DNA from: an uncultured Clostridia bacterium
GTDB taxonomy: Bacteria > Bacillota > Clostridia > TANB77 > CAG-508
Direction: 5' to 3'
DNA: 38,427 nt
NCBI GenBank assembly: GCA_948528155.1
Contig: CAOSZT010000002.1
Span: 1-38,427 of the forward strand
Positions 1 through 35,824 of this stretch are shown here, one piece after another (positions within the stretch are counted from its first letter, which is position 1; the number at the start of each line of letters is the position of its first letter). The translations under genes and the position numbers were made by a program. The notes under the pieces are model-generated. The model had not been told where the DNA came from. It saw nothing but the letters and a program-made list of their open reading frames with translations, and did not search any database.

Positions 1-2
1 AG

Positions 3-563
3 TTTATTGAAAATCCACCTAGAAAAATATGGAATATAGATATAGAAGATACTTTAAAAATAGAGGAAGGAAAAATTGATTTAAAGGGAAATAATTTTGA
101 AGATTACAAAAGAAAAGTAAAGAAGTTTTTAGATGGAAATATGGATAATATGGTTATCTATAAAATTAAACATAATGAAAAATTAACAGAATTAGAAAAA
201 CAAGACTTAGAAAGAATTATGTTTGAGGAGTTAGGAAATAATAAAGACTTTGTAGATACTTTTGGAAATTCAAATGTAATACAAGTTGTTAGAAACTTAG
301 TAGGACTAGACAGAGAAACAGCAAATCAAATATTTTCAAAATATATAAATGATAATAAATTAAACAGCAAACAAATTGAATTTGTAAAAGCATTAAAAGA
401 ATATCTTATTGTAAATGGAATCATCAGTTTAGATAAATTAAAAGAACAACCATTCAGCACAATAGGTTCAATATCAGAAATTTTTAAAGATAATATTAAT
501 ACTTTTAATGAAATAAAAGAGGATATAGAAAGTATAAATGATAATGTTGTTAAGTTTGGTTAA
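3..563 (+). CDS. hsdR: Type I restriction enzyme R subunit (HsdR), C-terminal fragment; 5' end lies upstream of the window
   Basis: Frame 3 is open from nt 3 with no stop before the ATG at 141 listed in the ORF track. The tail VRNLVGLDRETANQIFSKYI..NSKQIEFVKALKEYLIVNGII..EQPFSTIG resembles, from memory, the EcoEI-type HsdR C-terminal domain. No search run. Confidence 0.5.
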   Translation, partial: FIENPPRKIWNIDIEDTLKIEEGKIDLKGNNFEDYKRKVKKFLDGNMDNMVIYKIKHNEKLTELEKQDLERIMFEELGNNKDFVDTFGNSNVIQVVRNLVGLDRETANQIFSKYINDNKLNSKQIEFVKALKEYLIVNGIISLDKLKEQPFSTIGSISEIFKDNINTFNEIKEDIESINDNVVKFG

Positions 564-611
564 AATTACAAAAGAAGGAGATTAGAAGAAAACTGGAGCA
601 GGAGAATTGGT

Positions 612-863
612 ATGGCAAAAATATATAAAGAAGCTAATAAAAGAGAAACAGAAACTACAATAAATGTGTTATATAGTGAGGAAATATTATCAATTTATAC
701 TAATAAAGTAGATTTACAAAAGAAACTATTTAAGATTTTAGGAGAACCTAAAAAAGAATACATAAAAGGAAGATCTGTTTTAGGTAGTTGTTGGGAAATA
801 TCATTAAAAGATAAAGGTAAAATAAATCAAATTATATTAAGAGCTAATATTTATGATGAATAA
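612..863 (+). CDS. hypothetical protein (83 aa)
   Basis: ORF with GGAGAA 6 nt upstream of the ATG. No recognisable motif. Confidence 0.55.
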   Translation: MAKIYKEANKRETETTINVLYSEEILSIYTNKVDLQKKLFKILGEPKKEYIKGRSVLGSCWEISLKDKGKINQIILRANIYDE

Positions 864-899
864 AAGAGTAAAATATATGAATTATATAGGAGATATACA

Positions 900-1493
900 A
901 TGGATTTATTAGAAGAAATTAAAAATAATGATAGGCAAATACAGAATATAAATATTGATTATATTAAAATAGATAACATATCTTTAGAAGATGTGGAATT
1001 TCAAAAAGTAGTTTTTAGTAAATGTAATATAACAAGTAGTAGATTAGAAAATAGTTCATTCTATAATGTTTCTTTTAATAATTGTAACTTTTCTAATACA
1101 TCATTTGAAAACAGTACATTTCATAATTGCAAATTTGATAATTGTAAAATAGAAGGTGCAAGTTTTATAGAAAATTCAATTTTTGAAGTAACATTTCAAG
1201 ACACAAATGCTAATTTAATAAACTTATCAAATACTCATTTAAGAAATACAAAATTTATCAATACAACATTAAAAAATAGTTATTTTCAAGAAAATAAGCT
1301 AAAAAATATTGAATTTGAAAATACAGATTTAAGACAAGTACAGTTTTTTAAAACGAGTTTAGCAAATGTAGATTTATCTAGTTCAATAATTGAAGGAATG
1401 TCAATTTCACTAGAAGATATAAAAGGTGCTGTAATAAATGAATTACAAAGTATAGATTTATTATATCTGATAGGAGTAAAATTAAAAAAGTAA
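900..1493 (+). CDS. pentapeptide-repeat protein
   Basis: Continuous 5-residue periodicity over about 150 aa (SRLENSSFYNVSFNNCNFSNTSFENSTFHNCKFDNCKIEGASF...). AGGAGA RBS 7 nt upstream. Confidence 0.8.
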   Translation: MDLLEEIKNNDRQIQNINIDYIKIDNISLEDVEFQKVVFSKCNITSSRLENSSFYNVSFNNCNFSNTSFENSTFHNCKFDNCKIEGASFIENSIFEVTFQDTNANLINLSNTHLRNTKFINTTLKNSYFQENKLKNIEFENTDLRQVQFFKTSLANVDLSSSIIEGMSISLEDIKGAVINELQSIDLLYLIGVKLKK

Positions 1494-1516
1494 ATTACTA
1501 AAATTCGTTACGATAA

Positions 1517-1843
1517 GTGGAGGTGGTACAAATAAATTACTGGTGGATTTGGTTTATAATACTTTTTTGTTGTATAATAATACCAAGAAGAAATAAGTTA
1601 TATTTAGGAATACTGAATAGAAAAAGGAAAGGTAGGAAAAGAAAAATGCCACAAGAATTAATGAAAGAATTTATAGGAAAAGTATGCACAATTATATTAT
1701 TTAATGAATCTTTTGGAGTACAGGGAAAAATAGTCGCAGTAGAGGATAATTGGATAAAAGTTGAAGAAAAAAATAAGATTCGTATAATTAATGGAGATAT
1801 GATAAGAGATATATCAATAGCACCTGAAAAATATCAAAAGTAA
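1517..1843 (+). CDS. hypothetical small protein; start uncertain (GTG 1517 with TM-like N-terminus, or ATG 1646)
   Basis: ORF track. The C-terminal 65 aa (MPQELMKEFIGKVCTIILFNESFGVQGKIVAVEDNWIKVEE..) look like a small beta-barrel protein. A purine-rich stretch precedes 1646. Confidence 0.45.
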   Translation: MEVVQINYWWIWFIILFCCIIIPRRNKLYLGILNRKRKGRKRKMPQELMKEFIGKVCTIILFNESFGVQGKIVAVEDNWIKVEEKNKIRIINGDMIRDISIAPEKYQK

Positions 1844-1859
1844 CTACAAAATTACAATT

Positions 1860-2147
1860 TTGAAACGAGGTTTATATAAATTGAAAACTGATTTAATAAC
1901 AATACCAAATATCGGTAAAAAAACAAAACAATCACTATTAAACATAGGAATTACTTGCGTTGAAGATTTAATAGGAAAAGATCCAGAAGATTTATATTTT
2001 AAAGACTGTATAAAGAAAGGATTTCAAGAAGATAGATGTCAGTTATATCTTTTTAGAATGGCTATATATTATGCAGAAAATGATATTTATGAAGAAGAAA
2101 AATTGAAATGGTGGTATTGGAAAGACAAGCAATATCCAGAAAAATGA
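1860..2147 (+). CDS. helix-hairpin-helix domain protein (Cdd1 / pathogenicity-locus-like)
   Basis: TTG start. IPNIGKKTKQSLLNIGITCVEDLIGKDPEDLY ... DRCQLYLFRMAIYYA matches the HhH plus Cys/LY-FR-A-YYA pattern of that family as I remember it. Confidence 0.5.
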   Translation: MKRGLYKLKTDLITIPNIGKKTKQSLLNIGITCVEDLIGKDPEDLYFKDCIKKGFQEDRCQLYLFRMAIYYAENDIYEEEKLKWWYWKDKQYPEK

Positions 2148-2169
2148 AAAGTACAATATGTAGAGAGGA

Positions 2170-2204
2170 TTGACTTTTATGCCTAAAATACATTAGGAAA
2201 AATG
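2170..2204. repeat. candidate left copy of the island-flanking direct repeat (attL-like)
   Basis: TTGACTTTTATGCCTAAAATACATTAGGAAAAATG resembles 38336..38389 (TTGACCTTT-[19 nt]-TATGGCTAATACATTACAAAACAATG). It lies between convergent gene ends. Confidence 0.35.
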
Positions 2205-2238
2205 ACATCTATTGATATATACCAAATAAATAAAAAAT

Positions 2239-2269
2239 AATAGATAGCAACTAATCAATGCTATCTATT
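2239..2269. terminator. bidirectional hairpin terminator between convergent genes
   Basis: Perfect 11 bp stem AATAGATAGCA / TGCTATCTATT with a 9 nt loop, A-run upstream and T-run downstream. Confidence 0.6.
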
Positions 2270-2511
2270 TAATCTTTAACTAAATTTTTTAAGTTATTGT
2301 AATCGACTTCTAATATTTTACAAATAATAATCAGTTCAAAATCTTTTAATATAACTTTACCATTAATAATTTTATATAAATGCCATCTATCTATATTAAT
2401 TCCTCGTAATTGTAATTGCTTACACAAATCTTCTTTTGTCATATTTTTTTCACGAAGAGATTTTTCAATAAAATCTCCTGCAACATTTGATTTTCCATTA
2501 TATTTTCTCAC
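2269..2511 (-). CDS. XRE-family helix-turn-helix transcriptional regulator (80 aa)
   Basis: MTKEDLCKQLQLRGINIDRWHLYKIINGK is a typical HTH_XRE core. This is the only credible minus-strand gene, divergent from 2664. Confidence 0.75.
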   Translation of the reverse strand: MRKYNGKSNVAGDFIEKSLREKNMTKEDLCKQLQLRGINIDRWHLYKIINGKVILKDFELIIICKILEVDYNNLKNLVKD

Positions 2512-2541
2512 AACAAAATTCTCCTAAAAATTACATATATA

Positions 2542-2571
2542 TTGATTTTATTACAAATTCTATGATATAAT
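2542..2571 (+). promoter_or_regulatory. sigma-A type promoter (TTGATT-18-TGaTATAAT)
   Basis: -35 at 2542..2547. Extended -10: TG at 2563-2564, TATAAT at 2566..2571. Confidence 0.45.
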
Positions 2572-2596
2572 GTGGTCAAGTCAACCAATAATATTT

Positions 2597-2625
2597 TTGA
2601 CAGTTAGAATTTTTTTATGTAAGAT
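2597..2625 (+). promoter_or_regulatory. sigma-A type promoter (TTGACA-17-TAAGAT)
   Basis: Consensus -35 at 2597..2602, 17 nt spacer, TAAGAT at 2620..2625, upstream of ORF 2664. Confidence 0.5.
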
Positions 2626-2663
2626 AATTTAAAATATAGAAAAAATGATAAGAACAATTAAAA

Positions 2664-3473
2664 ATGTATTATACATTGGGAGAGAATATGAAAGAAAAGA
2701 TTATCCAGATAGTGGTTTTTAGCAGAAAACAAGAATTAGCAGAGAAATTTAAGTATGCAATAAATTGGGAATCAAGATATTTTAGGCAAGAAACTAAAAT
2801 TATAAATGATATTGAAGAACTTAGGAAAGTAAAAAAAGTAAATATACTTATAGTTCTTATTGATGAGCAAATGAATTGGGAATTTATTGAATTTAACAAA
2901 GAAGTCTTAAATAGCAAAACTAAAGAATGTTTTATTATTGATATGCAAAAAAGAACTATAACAAAGAATGGTATAACAGAATTATTAAGAGATAGCCAAG
3001 ATGATAAAGCACTAGCATTTAAAATAGTATATGATTATTATATAGAGTTAAAGAAAAAGAATGAAAAATCACAATTATCATATAATTACAAAAAACTAAA
3101 AAAAACTATGAATAAGTTTGAACAAGGCGATAACAAAAGTATTATACTAGATAAAATAGATGAAGTTGTGATGGAGAATAGACGTAATAATTCTGCAGGA
3201 TATGAAAAATTAAAAACAATGATATATTTTTCTATTGTAAATAAATTAGAGGTTGATAGTGAAAAAAATTATAATTACTTTCATAAAGCTATTGCAAGGA
3301 TTTTTAATGAAAATGTAACTGTTATTTTAAATGAAATTAATAGTACCATAAGAATAATAAGAAAAAGAAAGAAACAATTAAAAATACAAGAATATTTAGA
3401 GGAAATAAAAGGAAAACAAATAATAGAACAGATTATATTGATAAGTAAAATAGTAGAGAAAAGTATGAATTAA
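2664..3473 (+). CDS. hypothetical protein, possible regulator; likely start ATG 2688
   Basis: GGGAGAG precedes the ATG at 2688 (MKEKIIQIVVF..). The N-terminal ~100 aa weakly resemble a receiver-like alpha/beta fold (NILIVLIDEQMN). Not verifiable by eye. Confidence 0.55.
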   Translation: MYYTLGENMKEKIIQIVVFSRKQELAEKFKYAINWESRYFRQETKIINDIEELRKVKKVNILIVLIDEQMNWEFIEFNKEVLNSKTKECFIIDMQKRTITKNGITELLRDSQDDKALAFKIVYDYYIELKKKNEKSQLSYNYKKLKKTMNKFEQGDNKSIILDKIDEVVMENRRNNSAGYEKLKTMIYFSIVNKLEVDSEKNYNYFHKAIARIFNENVTVILNEINSTIRIIRKRKKQLKIQEYLEEIKGKQIIEQIILISKIVEKSMN

Positions 3474-3511
3474 TAATCTATAAGAAATTTTTTAGAAAGG
3501 AGCGATTAATT

Positions 3512-3709
3512 ATGACAATGCAATTATGGGAACATTGGGATAATATGTCAAATGAAGAAATACTTAGAGAATTATTATTGATGATATTAATAACAATAGT
3601 AATAGGAATAGTTACAGGATTATTGACATATTTAAAGAATAAATACAAAGATAAAGTAAATGAATCAAATAGTAAAGCGTTAAAATTTATTTTTAACAAT
3701 ATTCTATAA
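3512..3709 (+). CDS. small membrane protein (65 aa)
   Basis: AAAGGAG RBS. One hydrophobic helix, LLLMILITIVIGIVTGLLTYL. Confidence 0.55.
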   Translation: MTMQLWEHWDNMSNEEILRELLLMILITIVIGIVTGLLTYLKNKYKDKVNESNSKALKFIFNNIL

Positions 3710-3710
3710 T

Positions 3711-3780
3711 GTAAACATAAAATTTTGCAAAAACCTTGCAAAATCCTGCAGTATACATTCAGTTTTTTTAGTGTTAAAAT
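3711..3780 (+). promoter_or_regulatory. TTGCAAAA-box promoter cassette, copy 1
   Basis: GTAAACATAA-ATTTTGCAAAAACCTTGCAAAATCCTGCAGTATACA, then a 17 nt spacer and TGTTAAAAT (extended -10, hexamer 3775..3780). TATACA sits in the -35 position (3752..3757). Near-identical to copies at 15536, 26862 and 36649. Confidence 0.65.
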
Positions 3781-3806
3781 ATTAGTATGAAAAATTGTAG
3801 GTAACG

Positions 3807-3846
3807 AAGAGAGCTAATTAGAGAAATCTAACTAGCTTTCTTTTTT
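3807..3846 (+). terminator. leader hairpin plus T-tract between promoter cassette 1 and the first gene
   Basis: AAGAGAGCTAATTAG / CTAACTAGCTTTCTT, a 15 bp stem with 1 wobble and 1 mismatch, and a 6 nt loop. It runs into TTTTTT, 19 nt before ATG 3865. Confidence 0.6.
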
Positions 3847-3864
3847 GCTATTTTAGGAGGAATT

Positions 3865-4896
3865 ATGAAAAGTATAGTAAAAGGAAGTATAGTAACAGGA
3901 CTATTAGCAATATGTTTAATAACAAATGTATATGCAACACAAGGAACAAAAACAATAAAAAAAGATATTTTAAAATCAGAAGAGAATAATTTTTTAACAA
4001 CAATAGAACAAGAATATATAGAAGAAAACAAACAATATGAATTAGTAAATTATTTAAAAACAGAAGATGAAGAAAATGAGAAAACTGTAACAGCATATAA
4101 GAAAGATATTATTAAAACTAATTCAAGAGAAGCTATTATTGAACATTTTGGAGAAACATTACAATATTTAGATAGTGAATATTTTGGAACAATTGATTTA
4201 AAGGATTATGAAATAAAAGAAATTAACAATGGAAAATATGAAACAATTGATGAGAAGAAGATTAATTTTAGTAAATATAGTAAAAATGATTTAGATAATA
4301 TTGAAAAAGAAAAAGTTATAAATGGAGTAACATATTATCTTATAAATGTTAATTGGGAAAATGATGAAACAGAGAATATTGATAGTCAAGAAGTACCTGT
4401 AACTTATAAAGGTGTAATGGTATATCAAGCTATTGTAACAAGAAATAATCCATTTAGTTATGAGATAACAGTTACATACAAAGGGAATGTAAGAAAAAAA
4501 GATCCTATCTACTTATATACATTAGAATATGAAAAAGTAGAGGAAGAAGCTGTTGTTATTCAGGAAGGATCAAAAGATTATATAGTACCTACAATTATTA
4601 TAAGTGGATTAGGTATAGCATTAGTAATTGTTTATTGTATTGGAAAAACAACAGCAAGAGTATATGTTAAAACAGACAATGGGTTCAAATTAATAAAAGT
4701 TGTTAGATTAAGTAAGAAGCACAATACAATCAATATAAGTAATTATAAACACAAAACAATTACAAATATGTTTGCGATAAAAACTACAAATGGATTCTAT
4801 AATAAAAATCAAAATATGCTTATAAAAGTAAAGAAAGATAAGTTTACTAAAAATGTATATCTTAATAGTGCTTATATTGATTTTATTTTAGGATAA
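3865..4896 (+). CDS. membrane-anchored surface protein (signal peptide, C-proximal TM helix)
   Basis: AGGAGG RBS. Signal-like N-terminus MKSIVKGSIVTGLLAICLITNVYA and TM helix IVPTIIISGLGIALVIVYCIG, followed by a basic ~85 aa tail. Confidence 0.7.
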   Translation: MKSIVKGSIVTGLLAICLITNVYATQGTKTIKKDILKSEENNFLTTIEQEYIEENKQYELVNYLKTEDEENEKTVTAYKKDIIKTNSREAIIEHFGETLQYLDSEYFGTIDLKDYEIKEINNGKYETIDEKKINFSKYSKNDLDNIEKEKVINGVTYYLINVNWENDETENIDSQEVPVTYKGVMVYQAIVTRNNPFSYEITVTYKGNVRKKDPIYLYTLEYEKVEEEAVVIQEGSKDYIVPTIIISGLGIALVIVYCIGKTTARVYVKTDNGFKLIKVVRLSKKHNTINISNYKHKTITNMFAIKTTNGFYNKNQNMLIKVKKDKFTKNVYLNSAYIDFILG

Positions 4897-26507: not shown

Positions 26508-26858
26508 ATGGAATTAGCAGTAGATTATTTAAGTATTGGAGATAGAATAAGAGAAAGAAGAAAATTTTTAAAATTAAGTCAAGAAAATTTAGCAAATGAA
26601 ATTGGTGTTTCTGCTTCATTTATATCTGATATTGAAAACGGAAGAAGAAAAATGAGTTTAGAAACAATGATAAAAATATCAATAGCACTAGATACAAGTT
26701 TAGATTATTTAGTTTTAGATAATAGAAATAGTCATAAAATAAAAAGTGAAACTAAGCTAGTAGAATTAAAAGGTATGCTAGAAAAAGTAGACATTGAAGC
26801 AGGAGAATTATTTTTAGATTTAACATTAAATTCTGCAAAGTTTTTAGCAAATAGATAA
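26508..26858 (+). CDS. XRE-family helix-turn-helix transcriptional regulator (116 aa)
   Basis: LSQENLANEIGVSASFISDIENGRRKMSLETMIKISIALDTSLDYLV is a canonical HTH_XRE. Own RBS AAAGGTAG. Sits directly upstream of promoter cassette 3. Confidence 0.85.
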   Translation: MELAVDYLSIGDRIRERRKFLKLSQENLANEIGVSASFISDIENGRRKMSLETMIKISIALDTSLDYLVLDNRNSHKIKSETKLVELKGMLEKVDIEAGELFLDLTLNSAKFLANR

Positions 26859-26861
26859 ATA

Positions 26862-26931
26862 GTATACATAACCTTTTGCAAAAACGTTGCAAAATACTGC
26901 AGTATACATTCAGTTTTTAATGTGTTAATAT
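26862..26931 (+). promoter_or_regulatory. TTGCAAAA-box promoter cassette, copy 3
   Basis: GTATACATAACCTTTTGCAAAAACGTTGCAAAATACTGCAGTATACA, 17 nt spacer, TGTTAATAT (hexamer 26926..26931). Confidence 0.65.
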
Positions 26932-26949
26932 TATATCATAGACAAATTG

Positions 26950-26983
26950 GAGAAAGAAGATTTTATTTCTTTCTCTATTTTTT
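26950..26983 (+). terminator. leader hairpin plus T-tract between promoter cassette 3 and the SpoVG-like gene
   Basis: GAGAAAGAA / TTCTTTCTC 9 bp stem, 8 nt loop, then TATTTTTT. A further TTGCAAAA sits at 26985..26992, just before the RBS. Confidence 0.5.
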
Positions 26984-27010: not shown

Positions 27011-27637
27011 ATGAGTATTAAAGTTAAGTCATTAGGACTTGTAAAAAATGAAGAAATCGAAATAAAGGCAATAGCTTCTTTAGAAGCAGATGGAATAAGA
27101 ATTGATGGAATCAAAATAAACGAAAGTCAAAATGGTAATTTATATTTACAATTTCCAGAAAGAAAATTTAAAAAGAAAGATAGTGAAGAATTAATTACTA
27201 CTAAATTAATGTTTGCAGATAATGAAGTATTTAAGAAGATTAGTGAAACATTAATTAAAGCTTATCAAGATAAGAAAGAAAAAGGAGAATTTGAAATACA
27301 AGAAATAGAAACTTCAAAACAAGGAGTATCAATATCACAAGCTAATCCATTACAAGATCAAAGTAAAAAAACAAAAGCAATGGTTAGTATAGATGTAAAC
27401 GGAATCCACTTAAAAGATATAAGATTAAATGAAAATAATCAAGGGAATTTATATTTGCAATTTCCTAATAAAAAAACAAAAGAAGAAGAATATAAGGATA
27501 TGTTTTATCCAACTAATACAGATCTTAGAAAGCAATTAACAGATGAAGCTATTAATATTTATCAAGAAAAATTGATGGCAAAGGAATTTGATGAATCAGC
27601 AAAAGCTCAAGAAATGGACGAGGGAGAACGAGAATAA
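27011..27637 (+). CDS. tandem SpoVG-domain nucleic-acid-binding protein
   Basis: Two SpoVG-like units: IEIKAIASLEADGIRIDGIKINESQNGNLYLQFPERK... and KAMVSIDVNGIHLKDIRLNENNQGNLYLQFPNKK..YKDMFYPTNTDLRKQLTDEAINIY. Compare B. subtilis SpoVG ..[41 protein letters not shown]..AV...Y, from memory. Confidence 0.65.
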   Translation: MSIKVKSLGLVKNEEIEIKAIASLEADGIRIDGIKINESQNGNLYLQFPERKFKKKDSEELITTKLMFADNEVFKKISETLIKAYQDKKEKGEFEIQEIETSKQGVSISQANPLQDQSKKTKAMVSIDVNGIHLKDIRLNENNQGNLYLQFPNKKTKEEEYKDMFYPTNTDLRKQLTDEAINIYQEKLMAKEFDESAKAQEMDEGERE

Positions 27638-35127: not shown

Positions 35128-35484
35128 ATGGCAAAGTATGTTGTTAATGATGATATTAAAAATCAGATTTTAGATTTATATTTCAATAAAAATGAAACTA
35201 TGAAAAAAATAAGTGAAACAGTAGGTATAACTAGAAATACTATTAGTAACATCTTGCACCAGGATAATAGATTCTTTATCAAAAGAAAAATAATAAAAGA
35301 AGAAAGATTAAAAAAGCCACAAAGAAGGAAGTTGATTTTTAATAAAAATGGTCAAACGTATAATATAAAGATTAGTTTGCCTTATGATTACATAGAAAAA
35401 CTAGGATTTAATATTAGTAATAGAATTGCAAACGTAGAATTAGATGAAAAAAATGATCAAATCATTATATATAAAGAAAAGTAA
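35128..35484 (+). CDS. DNA-binding regulator: N-terminal HTH plus C-terminal AbrB/SpoVT-like domain (tentative)
   Basis: NETMKKISETVGITRNTISNILHQ (HTH). YNIKISLPYDYIEKLGFNISNRIANVELDEKNDQIIIYKE resembles a swapped-hairpin AbrB-type module. Confidence 0.5.
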   Translation: MAKYVVNDDIKNQILDLYFNKNETMKKISETVGITRNTISNILHQDNRFFIKRKIIKEERLKKPQRRKLIFNKNGQTYNIKISLPYDYIEKLGFNISNRIANVELDEKNDQIIIYKEK

Positions 35485-35513
35485 AAAGGAATTTTATACT
35501 TGAAAATACTGCA

Positions 35514-35560
35514 GTTTATATTTCTTAAAATTTTTGAGAAATATAAACTATTTTTTTATT
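35514..35560 (+). terminator. rho-independent terminator
   Basis: Perfect 12 bp stem GTTTATATTTCT / AGAAATATAAAC, 11 nt loop, then TATTTTTTTATT. Preceded by a degenerate box fragment AAAATACTGCAG (35503..35514). Confidence 0.8.
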
Positions 35561-35632: not shown

Positions 35633-35824
35633 ATGAAGTTTGATAAAAAGGAAGTAAATTTATTACAAGAAGCAGGAGCTAATGCTGAAGAAGGAAAGGA
35701 ATATACAGAAGAAGAGTTAAAAGTATTTGGGAATGAAGTTATATCATATATTATGAACCATAGTAAAAATGAAATTTCAAAGGTAAGAAATAAGTATAAT
35801 GTATTATTGCAAAAAATAGATTAG
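35633..35824 (+). CDS. hypothetical small protein (63 aa from ATG 35633; ORF track start 35582)
   Basis: GGGAGAAAG RBS directly upstream of ATG 35633. The upstream extension lacks an RBS. Confidence 0.45.
   Translation: MKFDKKEVNLLQEAGANAEEGKEYTEEELKVFGNEVISYIMNHSKNEISKVRNKYNVLLQKID

What the first reader, a model, noticed from the sequence alone, without database searches (positions are those of the whole stretch)
3711..3846. Four-copy promoter cassette with helically phased TTGCAAAA/TGCA boxes heads nearly every long operon of the island
A near-identical block CATAA-n-TTTTGCAAAAAC(C/G)TTGCAAAAT(C/A)CTGCAGTATAC starts at 3716, 15541, 26867 and 36654. In all four copies TATAC(A/T) sits exactly 17 nt upstream of a TGn-extended -10 (TGTTAAAAT, TGCTAGAAT, TGTTAATAT, TGGTACAGT). 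The box therefore covers roughly -75 to -30 of a sigma-A type promoter. Three TGCA cores are spaced 11 and 10 bp apart (3726, 3737, 3747), so they fall on one helix face. TTTTGCAAAA, CTGCAG and GTATAC are each palindromic, and a GTAwACAT word brackets the box. The four copies precede the surface-protein/sortase array (3865), the adhesin with probable read-through into the ArdC array (15698), the SpoVG/methyltransferase array (27011) and xis-int (36801). That is about 30 kb of the ~36 kb island. Solitary half-boxes lie at 12689, 26985 and 35503. I do not recognise this operator. It implies one dedicated regulator for the whole island.
Basis: seen in the sequence. Interest (0 to 1): 0.78.

Follow-up and report, generated by a model that had tools for sequence, protein, structure and literature searches.

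The report
Shared promoter box of clostridial ICEs
A 42-base DNA box just upstream of the promoter of almost every operon of a large conjugative element from uncultured gut Clostridia is real, strongly conserved, and also used by smaller mobile elements; this suggests a single master switch for the whole element, but the protein that reads the box was not identified.

Summary
An exact 34-mer occurs four times in the window, all on the + strand, with 0 expected by chance. In each copy it lies 15 nt upstream of a TGn-extended -10.

Comparative data support the promoter reading:
- 79 of 82 hits in 185,579 species genomes carry the full 42-nt box (ACATAAnnTTTTGCAAAAAnnTTGCAAAATnCTGCAGTATAC).
- All 79 lie in uncultured gut Clostridia. 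The box sits at the same distance from a -10 in nine unrelated downstream contexts.
- 23 loci found independently, through a neighbouring protein only 53-100% identical, have 0 mismatches in the box.

- The window is the right part of a larger element, about 73 kb in this copy and at least 80 kb in relatives, which carry six boxes (F-E-A-B-C-D).
- The box is not island-specific. It also heads xis-int or serine-recombinase modules of three other kinds of small element.
- Six of the nine leader classes, including window copies 1-3, carry a hairpin plus U-run between the predicted TSS and the RBS.

Best reading: an operator for one trans-acting regulator occupying -72..-31 of a sigma-A extended -10 promoter. 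It is probably an activator, with logic like AcaCD/SetCD and their satellites. The regulator is unidentified. A global repressor or a host factor remains possible.

The parts
3715..3756 (+). Box copy 1 (class A): ACATAAaaTTTTGCAAAAAccTTGCAAAATcCTGCAGTATAC, predicted -72..-31
3772..3780 (+). Extended -10 TGTTAAAAT of copy 1; predicted TSS about 3787
   Evidence: (TATACA-17-TAAAAT with TG)
3800..3849 (+). Leader hairpin plus U-run (terminator-like) between the predicted TSS and the RBS of 3865..4896
   Evidence: dG -23, z -4.35; conserved in class A, with a compensatory GC->AT change in L061
15540..15581 (+). Box copy 2 (class B)
15597..15605 (+). Extended -10 TGCTAGAAT of copy 2; predicted TSS about 15612
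15619..15682 (+). Leader hairpin plus U-run ahead of the SpaA/thioester adhesin gene (likely start 15704)
   Evidence: dG -31.8, z -5.43
26866..26907 (+). Box copy 3 (class C), 8 nt after the stop codon of the Xre gene
26923..26931 (+). Extended -10 TGTTAATAT of copy 3; predicted TSS about 26938
26948..26983 (+). Leader terminator-like hairpin plus TTTTTT ahead of the SpoVG-like gene
   Evidence: 12-pair stem, T-run
36653..36694 (+). Box copy 4 (class D), ahead of xis-int
36710..36718 (+). Extended -10 TGGTACAGT of copy 4; predicted TSS about 36725
36756..36800 (+). Leader hairpin that pairs with the xis RBS region; there is no U-run, so it is not terminator-like
   Evidence: dG -12.4, z -3.3; class D has no terminator
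35500..35519 (+). Decayed half-box TTGAAAATACTGCAGTTTAT (1-nt deletion, poor -10) in the variable region
26508..26858 (+). Xre/cI-type HTH gene ending just before box 3. It is conserved in relatives (63-68% identity). A paralogue sits in the same position before box F. Candidate box-binding protein.
27011..27637 (+). SpoVG-domain protein, first gene driven by box 3; conserved in relatives
36783..38307 (+). xis (HTH_17; likely start 36801) and tyrosine integrase, driven by box 4; right end of the ICE

Best explanation
The box is the upstream half of a modular promoter used by a family of large (about 73-85 kb) integrative conjugative elements of uncultured gut Clostridia.

Anatomy:
- A near-consensus TGn-extended -10 is read by the host housekeeping sigma factor.
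- The -35 position and the 40 bp upstream of it (-72..-31) are replaced by an invariant composite operator.
- The operator consists of four hexamers on one helix face: ACATAA, TTGCAA, TTGCAA and CTGCAG, centred near -69.5, -59.5, -48.5 and -38.5. GTATAC follows at -36..-31.

Proposed mechanism:
- One trans-acting, element-encoded regulator binds this operator, probably as two adjacent dimers, and switches on all six operons together: F transfer genes, E, A surface proteins, B adhesin/anti-restriction, C SpoVG/methylase, D xis-int.
- The most likely mode is class II-type activation. The operator's 3' end sits where sigma region 4 would bind, as at AcaCD/SetCD-dependent promoters.
- The regulator would be made from the early/regulatory module at the left of the ICE. 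The Xre paralogues encoded immediately 5' of boxes F and C are the leading candidates.
- Small integrative elements that carry only the box in front of their recombinase genes would use the same signal to time their own excision.
- In six of nine leader classes a strong hairpin plus U-run follows the promoter within 40-65 nt. This insulates each operon from read-through, and full expression must require read-through or antitermination.

Shown: the anatomy, the conservation, the fixed spacing, the distribution and the leader hairpins.
Inferred: the promoter activity and TSS, the existence and identity of the regulator, the direction of control and the role of the terminators.
For: - Four exact copies in the window, 0 expected.
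- A pattern specifying 21 bases found 82 stretches in 185,579 species genomes. 79 of them carry the whole box, including unspecified positions (ACATAA, TATAC), and all 79 are in gut Clostridia MAGs.
- Information content is about 0 in the flanks. It is high across -10..+31 relative to the first TTGCAAAA and again at TG.TA.A.T exactly 15 nt later.
- Nine different downstream contexts keep this spacing while the spacer and leader differ.
- Unbiased sample: 23 loci retrieved through the pseudo-receiver protein (53-100% identity) have 0 of 37 mismatches in the box.
- On contigs JAAWDR010000026, CAKPDR010000002 and SVGD01000007 the boxes are co-oriented and lie in the order F-E-A-B-C-D over about 80 kb. 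The window's own element has box E 6.9 kb to the left of the window.
- The ICE has a separate immunity region with different operators: a cI-like Xre with 3x AGTACAGaCAATTGATAC, then a divergent HTH_26, a pseudo-receiver and an Xre immediately before box F. This fits an early-to-late cascade.
- Xre paralogues end 8-17 nt before boxes C and F.
- The box heads an HTH_17 xis plus tyrosine integrase (class H, 15 species) and large serine recombinases (classes G and I) in small elements with no regulator of their own in view.
- Published precedent: AcaCD sites end at the -35 position of promoters that lack a -35 box, and SGI1 Pxis uses the helper's activator (PMC5058578; PMC4605294, PMC4207636 and PMC4344509).
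- Leader hairpins.
Against: - No TSS or expression data exist for this element.
- TGn-extended -10 promoters can work without a -35 element or an activator, which would suit a repressor better.
- Xre/cI-type proteins are more often repressors.
- No regulator was identified. The pseudo-receiver's C-terminal domain has no DNA-binding fold match (best Foldseek E = 2) and no sequence match in the PDB.
- The box is invariant, so no protein-DNA covariation can be read.
- Many MAGs carry a satellite box without detectable ICE boxes. That fits helper dependence but fits a host factor equally well.
- The presence of box F and the regulatory module in the window's own contig is inferred from relatives and was not seen directly.
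Confidence: 0.55

Rival explanations
1. The box has the same promoter anatomy but is the operator of a global repressor, in the manner of KorB, ImmR or omega. An element-encoded protein would keep all six operons silent by covering -72..-31, and induction would remove it. Candidates are the Xre at 26508 or its F-side paralogue, or the ParB_N protein that is the first gene after box F.
For: - The core promoter has a strong TGn-extended -10 that may not need activation.
- Xre-family genes abut two boxes.
- A ParB_N protein is the first product of the box-F operon, as expected for an autoregulated KorB-like repressor.
- TTTTGCAAAA is a perfect 10-bp palindrome, reminiscent of the KorB OB site TTTAGCSGCTAAA (own knowledge).
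- The Xre before box 3 is itself expressed from the box-2 operon, which would give negative feedback.
Against: - The operator ends at -31 and leaves the -10 and the TSS free.
- The distance to the -10 is rigidly fixed in more than 100 copies, unlike KorB sites, which act from variable distances.
- Small elements that carry only the box before their recombinase (classes G, H, I) would be constitutively derepressed, and so unstable, wherever the ICE is absent. 26 of 45 MAGs with a box show only such satellites.
- The ICE already has a separate cI-like immunity region with other operators.
Confidence: 0.25
2. The box is read by a host-encoded regulator of this clostridial lineage, such as a stress or nutrient sensor. 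Several unrelated mobile elements would have adopted it independently to time excision and transfer, much as LexA boxes are used in integron and prophage promoters.
For: - The box is confined to one host group.
- It fronts four different recombinase modules (Tyr-ICE, Tyr-H, Ser-G, Ser-I) plus ICE operons.
- Satellites often occur in MAGs without ICE boxes.
- No element-encoded reader could be identified.
Against: - None of the 79 genuine genome hits lies in front of an evident host gene. All fall into nine mobile-element contexts.
- The box does not fit the known firmicute motifs that were compared. The CodY 15-mer gives 5-7 mismatches with a centre 1 nt short. The LexA GAAC-N4-GTTC, CtsR GGTCAAA repeat, Spo0A, cre and Rex motifs are absent (comparison by eye with consensus sequences from own knowledge).
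Confidence: 0.1
3. The box is a factor-independent strong promoter cassette. Phased A-tracts (AAAAA at about -58..-54 and AAAA at about -47..-44) would act as an UP element or curved DNA for the alpha-CTD. The block would be conserved because it spreads as a unit by recombination between elements.
For: - The A-tracts are phased at about 11 bp upstream of the -35 position (read from the sequence).
- Phased A-tracts stimulate clostridial promoters such as C. perfringens plc (own knowledge).
- Copies A, B and F share about 110 nt including the leader, so whole cassettes have been duplicated.
- L110 shows an F-upstream/B-leader junction at the box.
Against: - UP elements tolerate much sequence variation. 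Here every G/C position (three TGCA cores, CTGCAG, GTATAC, ACATAA) is invariant, while five interspersed positions vary freely.
- Flanking proteins have diverged to 53% identity while the box has not changed.
- That pattern indicates base-specific recognition, not curvature.
- A constitutive strong promoter in front of xis-int or serine recombinases would destabilise the elements.
Confidence: 0.07
4. The box is not primarily transcriptional. It could be a REP/MITE-like selfish repeat, a parS or partition site, an integrase arm site, an oriT, or a recombination hotspot.
For: - A ParB_N protein is encoded in the ICE.
- Homology between class H loci starts exactly at the box.
- A possible recombinant was seen at the box (L110).
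Against: - The box always has the same orientation relative to the downstream gene, always lies in an intergenic region, and always sits 15 nt from a TGn -10.
- It occurs in serine-recombinase elements, which have no arm-binding integrase.
- There are six copies per ICE rather than one, which argues against an oriT.
- No copies were found on the opposite strand or inside genes.
Confidence: 0.03

Closest known systems
AcaCD (IncA/C plasmids) and SetCD (SXT/R391 ICEs) master-activator regulons, with the SGI1/MGI satellites that use them (PMC4207636, PMC4344509, PMC4605294, PMC5058578)
   Same: One conserved operator heads most transfer operons, including xis/int. Its 3' end occupies the -35 position of promoters that lack a -35 box, with the -10 at a fixed distance. 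The same operator sits before the excision genes of unrelated small integrative elements.
   Different: The hosts are Gammaproteobacteria and the activators are FlhDC-family proteins. No FlhC/FlhD homologue was seen here, and the motif sequence is unrelated. These promoters have a TGn-extended -10 and, in six of nine classes, a leader terminator. Neither activation nor helper dependence has been shown here.
KorB/OB global regulon of IncP (RK2) plasmids (own knowledge)
   Same: A short palindromic operator is repeated across a conjugative element in front of transfer, maintenance and regulatory operons. A ParB-family protein is encoded by the element, and its own operon carries the operator.
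   Different: KorB represses, and it acts from variable distances including more than 1 kb. Here the distance to the -10 is invariant and the conserved block is 42 nt, not 13. The ParB_N protein here is not shown to bind DNA.
Pho-box promoters (PhoB/PhoP) and lambda cI at PRM (own knowledge)
   Same: Hexamers repeated every 10-11 bp on one helix face replace or abut the -35 element. The activator contacts sigma region 4.
   Different: No winged-helix response regulator is present. The only receiver-domain protein nearby has Asn in place of the phospho-acceptor Asp and an unclassifiable helical C-domain.
Terminator/antiterminator control in Gram-positive conjugative elements: conAn of pLS20-like plasmids (PMC8191782) and canT/T1 of Tn916 (PMC11658703)
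   Same: Intrinsic terminators inside the element insulate operons, so expression must depend on read-through.
   Different: conAn and canT are single large cis-acting RNAs near the start of one long operon. Here each operon has its own promoter followed within 40-65 nt by its own terminator, which is too short for such an RNA. Only the class E leader, outside the window, holds a large conserved structure.
Tn916 regulatory module (orf9, orf7, orf8, orf5, xis, int) (own knowledge)
   Same: An HTH protein with weak sigma-70 region 4 similarity (35128..35484) and small ORFs lie upstream of xis-int.
   Different: These genes are absent from related ICEs that keep the box. The box has no counterpart described for Tn916.

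Membership tests
Sigma-A (sigma-70) extended -10 promoter | TG at -15/-14 followed by a TAnAAT-like -10 hexamer | tested here: met
   TGTTAAAAT, TGCTAGAAT, TGTTAATAT and TGGTACAGT in the window. TG.TA.A.T is conserved across 61 non-redundant copies.
Sigma-A (sigma-70) extended -10 promoter | -35 hexamer close to TTGACA, 17 +/- 1 bp upstream | tested here: not met
   The hexamer at that position is the invariant TATACA/TATACT, only 3-4 of 6 matches. It is part of the conserved box.
Sigma-A (sigma-70) extended -10 promoter | Mapped transcription start about 7 nt after the -10 | not testable with these tools
   No transcript data are available.
Master-activator regulon of a conjugative element (AcaCD/SetCD type) | A conserved operator whose 3' end occupies the -35 position of promoters without a -35 box, at a fixed distance from the -10 | tested here: met
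   GTATAC at -36..-31, then N15 and TGn, in all copies. Compare PMC5058578.
Master-activator regulon of a conjugative element (AcaCD/SetCD type) | The operator heads most operons of the element, including xis/int | tested here: met
   Four operons in the window. Six co-oriented boxes F-E-A-B-C-D in relatives.
Master-activator regulon of a conjugative element (AcaCD/SetCD type) | The same operator sits before excision genes of unrelated small integrative elements | tested here: met
   Classes H (xis plus Tyr integrase) and G and I (Ser recombinases). Mobilisation by the ICE was not shown.
Master-activator regulon of a conjugative element (AcaCD/SetCD type) | An FlhC/FlhD-family activator encoded by the element | tested here: not met
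   No such Pfam hit in 53 window proteins or in the proteins of related loci that were scanned.
Master-activator regulon of a conjugative element (AcaCD/SetCD type) | Promoters silent without the factor and induced by it | not testable with these tools
   Needs reporter assays.
KorB/OB-type global repressor regulon | A ParB-family DNA-binding protein encoded by the element | tested here: inconclusive
   A ParB_N protein is the first gene after box F in relatives. It is not in the window and DNA binding is unknown.
KorB/OB-type global repressor regulon | The operator functions at variable distances from promoters | tested here: not met
   The distance to the -10 is identical in all 79 + 23 copies.
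Intrinsic terminator / leader attenuator | A stable hairpin immediately followed by a U-run, between the TSS and the start codon | tested here: met
   Copies 1-3 have dG -23, -31.8 and -15.9 (for copy 3). Classes A, B, C, F, G and I all have one, 39-64 nt after the predicted TSS. Copy 4 and classes D, E and H do not.
Intrinsic terminator / leader attenuator | A competing antiterminator structure or a conserved leader peptide | tested here: not met
   No alternative fold appears in the MFE or centroid structure. A mini-ORF at the predicted TSS of copies 1-2 is not kept in class A relatives, which have ATC instead of ATG.
conAn / canT processive antitermination | A large structured cis-acting RNA between the promoter and the first terminator | tested here: not met
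   Only 40-65 nt precede the terminator in classes A, B, C, F, G and I. The class E leader (L084:2552-2716) does hold a conserved 26-bp stem, but it is outside the window and untested.
REP/MITE-like dispersed repeat | Copies in either orientation, unrelated to gene starts | tested here: not met
   All copies are intergenic, co-oriented with the downstream gene and fixed to a -10.
Tn916-type Orf7/Orf8/Orf9 control | A conserved sigma-like Orf7 homologue upstream of xis-int | tested here: not met
   35128..35484 hits Sigma70_r4 only weakly (E 1e-5). It has no homologue upstream of box D in related ICEs.
CodY operator | The 15-bp palindrome AATTTTCWGAAAATT | tested here: not met
   The best register gives 5-7 mismatches with a centre 1 nt short. 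The outer AA/TT positions are the variable ones (consensus from own knowledge).
Known RNA family in the leader | An Rfam covariance-model hit at gathering score | tested here: not met
   No hit at gathering score in the window. Only sub-threshold chance hairpin matches were found.

The most novel reading that the evidence does not exclude
The box is the DNA loading site of an element-encoded factor with two functions. It recruits RNA polymerase to -35-less promoters, and it makes the polymerase resistant to the terminator 40-65 nt downstream, as lambda Q does at PR'/tR'. Transcription entering from outside or from a neighbouring operon would be stopped, and only box-initiated transcription would pass. 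Three kinds of small integrative elements would copy the box, and two of them also the terminator, to parasitise this signal. This would be the first AcaCD/SGI1-style helper-satellite regulatory network in Gram-positive gut anaerobes.
Probability: 0.12. Interest if true: 0.85.

Novelty: new variant of a known kind. Interest (0 to 1): 0.6.

Why it matters
- Prevalence: this ICE family is common in gut metagenomes. Single Xre or pseudo-receiver clusters lie on hundreds of contigs. The element carries adhesins, sortase-type surface proteins, restriction-modification and anti-restriction genes.
- Regulon: a single 42-nt signature marks the start of each of its operons. It provides a search key for related elements and for their candidate satellites in uncultured Clostridia.
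- Testability: a short list of candidate regulators can be tested in a heterologous host.
- If the helper-satellite reading holds, regulatory hijacking of conjugative elements would extend from Gammaproteobacteria to Gram-positive gut anaerobes. Master-regulator operators of this kind are, to my knowledge, not described there.
- The promoter-plus-immediate-terminator design is a distinct insulation logic that could be reused in synthetic biology for low-GC anaerobes.

Tried and rejected
1. Known RNA family: none at gathering score. Only chance hairpin hits at E > 0.09.
2. Similar DNA in PLSDB plasmids or INPHARED phages: none. The box pattern is absent from IMG/VR. The pseudo-receiver protein is absent from plasmids.
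3. Literature: a full-text search for TTGCAAAA with 'conjugative' gave only unrelated hits. Searches on master activators returned only the Gammaproteobacterial systems, pLS20, Tn916 and TnSmu1.
4. Alternative sigma factor: the only sigma-like proteins are not conserved across the family. These are 35128..35484 (weak r4) and a 498-aa ECF-fusion in the class E cargo of JAAWDR.
5. Pseudo-receiver protein as the DNA binder:
   - AlphaFold model pLDDT 92.8.
   - Foldseek hits only the receiver domain.
   - The C-domain modelled alone (pLDDT 85.9) has no PDB fold match (best E = 2) and no PDB sequence match.
   - There is therefore no support for or against DNA binding.
6. Early-operon proteins as a late activator: the 178-aa protein matches only phrog_1558, of unknown function. 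The next is an HNH endonuclease. No PDB sequence hit was found.
7. Comparison of the recognition helices of the two Xre paralogues shows only generic Xre similarity, which is not diagnostic.
8. Leader-peptide attenuation: the mini-ORFs are not conserved.
9. A minus-strand promoter TTAACA-16-TATACT overlaps copies 1 and 3. It is lost in copies 2 and 4, so it is treated as a by-product.
10. Restriction-site avoidance: counts of CTGCAG and GTATAC outside the boxes are unremarkable.
11. Host motifs (LexA, CtsR, CodY, Spo0A, cre, Rex, LytTR) were compared by eye from memory. None fits.
Full report
**1.

The four stretches were read directly. The 34-mer TTTTGCAAAAACSTTGCAAAATMCTGCAGTATAC occurs at 3723, 15548, 26874 and 36661, all on the + strand and without mismatch. 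None of 100 dinucleotide-preserving shuffles gave a match even with 3 mismatches allowed.

The repeat finder reports one four-copy family of 109 nt. The alignment shows an invariant core from ACATAA to GTATAC. TGCA cores lie at 3726, 3737 and 3747.

GTATAC is followed in every copy by exactly 15 nt and then a TGn-extended -10: TGTTAAAAT, TGCTAGAAT, TGTTAATAT and TGGTACAGT.

Three details are weaker:
- The 'GTAwACAT bracket' is not general.
- The sites at 12689 and 26985 are lone TTGCAAAA octamers, no more frequent than chance once the boxes are removed. The one at 12689 lies in an ordinary TGGTATAAT promoter.
- Only 35500-35519 is a true decayed half-box, with a 1-nt deletion.

**2. What the window is**

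All long ORFs are on the + strand and G+C is 24.4%. Pfam scans give this layout:

| Window position | Content |
|---|---|
| 1-3709 | C-terminal end of a type I restriction R subunit and small cargo genes |
| after box 1 | unannotated proteins, a DarA_C protein, a split sortase |
| after box 2 | 1130-aa SpaA/thioester adhesin, ArdC, a nucleotidyltransferase, an LPD11 protein, then an Xre-type HTH (26508..26858) |
| after box 3 | SpoVG-domain protein, an N6/N4 methylase and unknowns |
| after box 4 | xis (HTH_17) and a tyrosine integrase with an arm-binding domain |

A look-up of the window's own 83-aa protein recovered contigs that extend 9.4 kb to the left. These carry a fifth box 6.9 kb before window position 1 (L083/L084:2489). 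It is followed by two small genes, hsdM, hsdS and hsdR. The first 3.7 kb of the window is therefore the tail of a box-driven operon. The longest contig with this sequence is 73,004 bp.

**3. The box in other genomes**

A deliberately loose pattern, TTGCAAAA-N3-TTGCAAAA-N3-TGCAG (21 specified bases), was scanned over one genome for each of 185,579 species. It found 82 stretches.
- Three are chance hits in unrelated, GC-richer contexts.
- The other 79 are all from uncultured gut Clostridia MAGs (human, mouse, rabbit, ruminants).
- All 79 also carry the positions the pattern did not specify: ACATAA upstream, TATAC downstream, and TG.TA.A.T exactly 15 nt further on.
- Information content is about zero in both flanks and in the five 'n' positions.

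The downstream sequences fall into nine unrelated classes:

| Class | Context |
|---|---|
| A-D | the four window contexts |
| E, F | further ICE operons |
| G, H, I | other small elements (section 5) |

The spacer and leader differ between classes but the spacing never does. That is the signature of a promoter element working together with the -10.

The pattern itself forces identity at 21 positions, so an independent sample was taken. Loci were found through a neighbouring protein, the pseudo-receiver described below, in ENA assemblies and in 241 million metagenome records. All 23 loci have 0 of 37 mismatches in the box, although that protein is only 53-100% identical among them.

**4. The whole element**

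On three long contigs the boxes are co-oriented in the order F-E-A-B-C-D over about 80 kb. Loci centred on the left part show, in order:
- the host spoIVB gene;
- a leftward cI-like Xre (156 aa), faced by three copies of a different operator, AGTACAGaCAATTGATAC;
- an 'early' operon with a Phage_rep_org_N replication protein, several unknowns, an HNH protein and a type IA topoisomerase;
- a leftward HTH_26 protein, with another palindrome (TGTTTGA-N4-TCAAACA);
- a rightward pair: a receiver-domain protein with Asn in place of the phospho-acceptor Asp, and an Xre protein;
- box F, 10-17 nt after that Xre, followed by a ParB_N protein, a relaxase-like protein, a VirD4-type coupling protein and TrbL-like proteins.

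The element thus has three tiers of operators. The box belongs to the last and largest tier.

The Xre before box F and the Xre before box 3 of the window are paralogues (31-41% identity). Both end just before a box.

That the window's own copy carries box F and this module is inferred from relatives. It was not seen directly.

**5. The box outside the ICE**

- Class H (15 species): the box is followed directly by an RBS, an HTH_17 excisionase-like gene and a tyrosine integrase only about 27% identical to the window's. Variable, cargo-like genes lie upstream and host genes such as rumA lie beyond the integrase.
- Class G (10 species): the box, a hairpin plus U-run and a 541-aa serine recombinase lie at the end of a small element carrying an HTH_36 replication-initiator-like protein and a nucleotidyltransferase/HEPN pair.
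- Class I (4 species): the box, a hairpin plus U-run, a RepA_N protein, a 57-aa ORF and a 585-aa serine recombinase.

These assignments rest. None of these elements shows a regulator homologous to any ICE protein. In 26 of 45 MAGs with a box only such small elements were detected. MAG incompleteness limits what this count means.

**6. A second layer: leader hairpins**

From the predicted TSS, copies 1-3 fold into a strong hairpin followed by a U-run, just before the RBS:
- Copy 1: dG -23 kcal/mol, z -4.35.
- Copy 2: dG -31.8 kcal/mol, z -5.43.
- Copy 3: dG -15.9 kcal/mol, z -2.2. The terminator scan also called this one.

Across the family, classes A, B, C, F, G and I all have such a hairpin ending 39-64 nt after the predicted TSS. 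One class A relative shows a compensatory GC-to-AT change. Classes D and H (both xis-int) and class E lack it.

Copy 4 instead has a hairpin that pairs with the xis RBS region.

No terminator lies between the preceding gene and the box. The leader hairpin would therefore stop read-through from the upstream operon, and it would also stop transcripts started at the box promoter unless they are made resistant or termination is partial. No alternative antiterminator fold or conserved leader peptide was found.

Terminators used as insulators, together with cis-acting RNA antiterminators, are established in Gram-positive conjugative elements: conAn (PMC8191782) and Tn916 T1/canT (PMC11658703). Those are single large RNAs at the head of one long operon, which is not this arrangement.

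**7. Mechanism**

The operator consists of four hexamers centred near -69.5, -59.5, -48.5 and -38.5, all on one helix face. GTATAC sits exactly where a -35 hexamer would be, but it matches TTGACA at only 3-4 of 6 positions and never varies. TTGCAA-N5-TTGCAA has the geometry of a 17-bp operator for an HTH dimer. Four hexamers suggest two adjacent dimers.

Two lines of evidence favour class II-type activation by an element-encoded factor made from the regulatory module:
- AcaCD-dependent promoters have the same layout. They have no -35 box, and the 3' end of the activator site sits at the -35 position (PMC5058578).
- The satellites favour activation. An element with only the box before its recombinase would be silent and stable without the helper under activation, but constitutively excising under repression.

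I rate this reading at 0.55.

The main rival, rated 0.25, is a global repressor. The extended -10 may not need help. Xre proteins are usually repressors. A ParB_N protein opens the box-F operon, as KorB does in RK2.

A host factor is rated 0.10. It is not excluded, but no host promoter carries the box.

A factor-independent UP-like cassette is rated 0.07. It conflicts with base-by-base invariance at every G/C position alongside freely varying neighbouring positions.

**8. Who reads the box**

This was not resolved.
- The Xre at 26508 and the SpoVG-like protein are conserved.
- The pseudo-receiver family is small (41 clusters) and specific to this ICE family. Its model is confident (pLDDT 92.8), but its six-helix C-domain matches nothing in the PDB by fold or by sequence.
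- The early-operon proteins have no informative annotation.
- No conserved sigma factor was seen in the parts examined.

**9. Comparison and novelty**

No match was found in Rfam, plasmids, phages or IMG/VR. Nothing in the searchable literature describes this motif.

The logic is known from AcaCD/SetCD and from KorB: one operator for a whole conjugative element, copied by smaller elements. Four things here are not part of those systems:
- the motif itself;
- the host group;
- the lack of any homologue of those regulators;
- the extended -10 core combined with a terminator immediately after the promoter.

I therefore file this as a new variant of a known kind, with interest 0.6.

It is a sound, checkable regulatory signature for a prevalent family of elements in uncultured gut bacteria, with a possible helper-satellite network. 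Its central functional claims still rest on inference.

Noticed in passing
L084:2552-2716 (about 6.8 kb left of window position 1; same in L002, L007, L026, L046, L068): The class E leader is about 165 nt and has no terminator. It folds into a conserved 26-bp long-range stem with 2 compensatory and 4 wobble-compatible changes in 5 sequences. The stem encloses pyrimidine-rich loops (CUUGCUCCUUUC and AAUCCCCUUUUAUA) that are complementary to the downstream RBS AAGGAGGGG. There is no Rfam match. It may be a riboregulator or a cis-acting antiterminator.
   Followed up: partly
L089:3244-3396 and L089:9905-9925: Related ICEs have two further operator types. Three copies of AGTACAGaCAATTGATAC lie between a leftward cI-like Xre and the early operon. 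A palindrome TGTTTGAgcggTCAAACA lies between a leftward HTH_26 gene and the pseudo-receiver gene. Together with the box this gives a three-tier regulatory layout.
   Followed up: partly
window 11566-12148: The sortase appears to be split into two overlapping ORFs (11566..11901 and 11882..12148; only the second hits the Pfam Sortase domain). Relatives have a single ORF of about 187 aa (L013, L015). This is probably a frameshift or a sequencing error.
   Followed up: partly
window 3750-3777 and 26901-26928, minus strand: A promoter-like site on the opposite strand (TTAACA-16-TATACT, 10 of 12 matches) is formed by the complement of the extended -10 and of GTATAC. It is not kept in copies 2 and 4, so it is probably a by-product. 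It could give antisense transcription into the box.
   Followed up: partly
window 36727-36760 (xis leader) and class D relatives: The xis leader is CA-rich, with repeated AAAACCTTAAAA / AACCAAAAA words. Similar AAACTAAACC repeats precede the box in some class H loci. Their function is unknown; they could be Xis/Int sites or a translational enhancer.
   Followed up: no
window 14632-14660: A near-consensus sigma-A promoter (TTGACA-17-TAAAAT, 11 of 12) precedes 14755..15528, the last gene before box 2. This is a box-independent promoter inside the box-1 operon.
   Followed up: no
window 35824-36316: A stretch of about 490 nt has no ORF of 60 aa or more. It lies in the variable region upstream of box 4, next to genes (35128, 35582) that are absent from relatives. 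It looks like decayed cargo, and it lies a few hundred nt to the right of the relic half-box at 35500.
   Followed up: no
L110 (1,564-nt metagenome contig): The pseudo-receiver/Xre module is joined through the box to a class B (adhesin) leader instead of the class F leader. This is either a box-mediated deletion or recombination, or an assembly chimera across the repeat.
   Followed up: no
L086/L087 (Logan contigs), at the box homologous to window 3715-3756: A run of N followed by Illumina adapter sequence (ACACTCTTTCCCTACACGACGCTCTTCCGATCT) interrupts the box. This is an assembly artefact in those public contigs.
   Followed up: no
L083:6613-9952 versus window 141-563: The type I restriction R subunit upstream of the window is called as two overlapping genes (622 + 507 aa) in several contigs and as three in L088. 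It may be frameshifted or phase-variable.
   Followed up: no
L019, L029, L060 (class A relatives), about 1.1 kb to 30 nt upstream of the box: In some ICE variants the gene just before box A is a histidine-kinase C-terminal fragment (HATPase-like sequence). In the JAAWDR variant the class E operon carries a 498-aa ECF-sigma fusion. The cargo between boxes E and A therefore varies and includes signalling genes.
   Followed up: no
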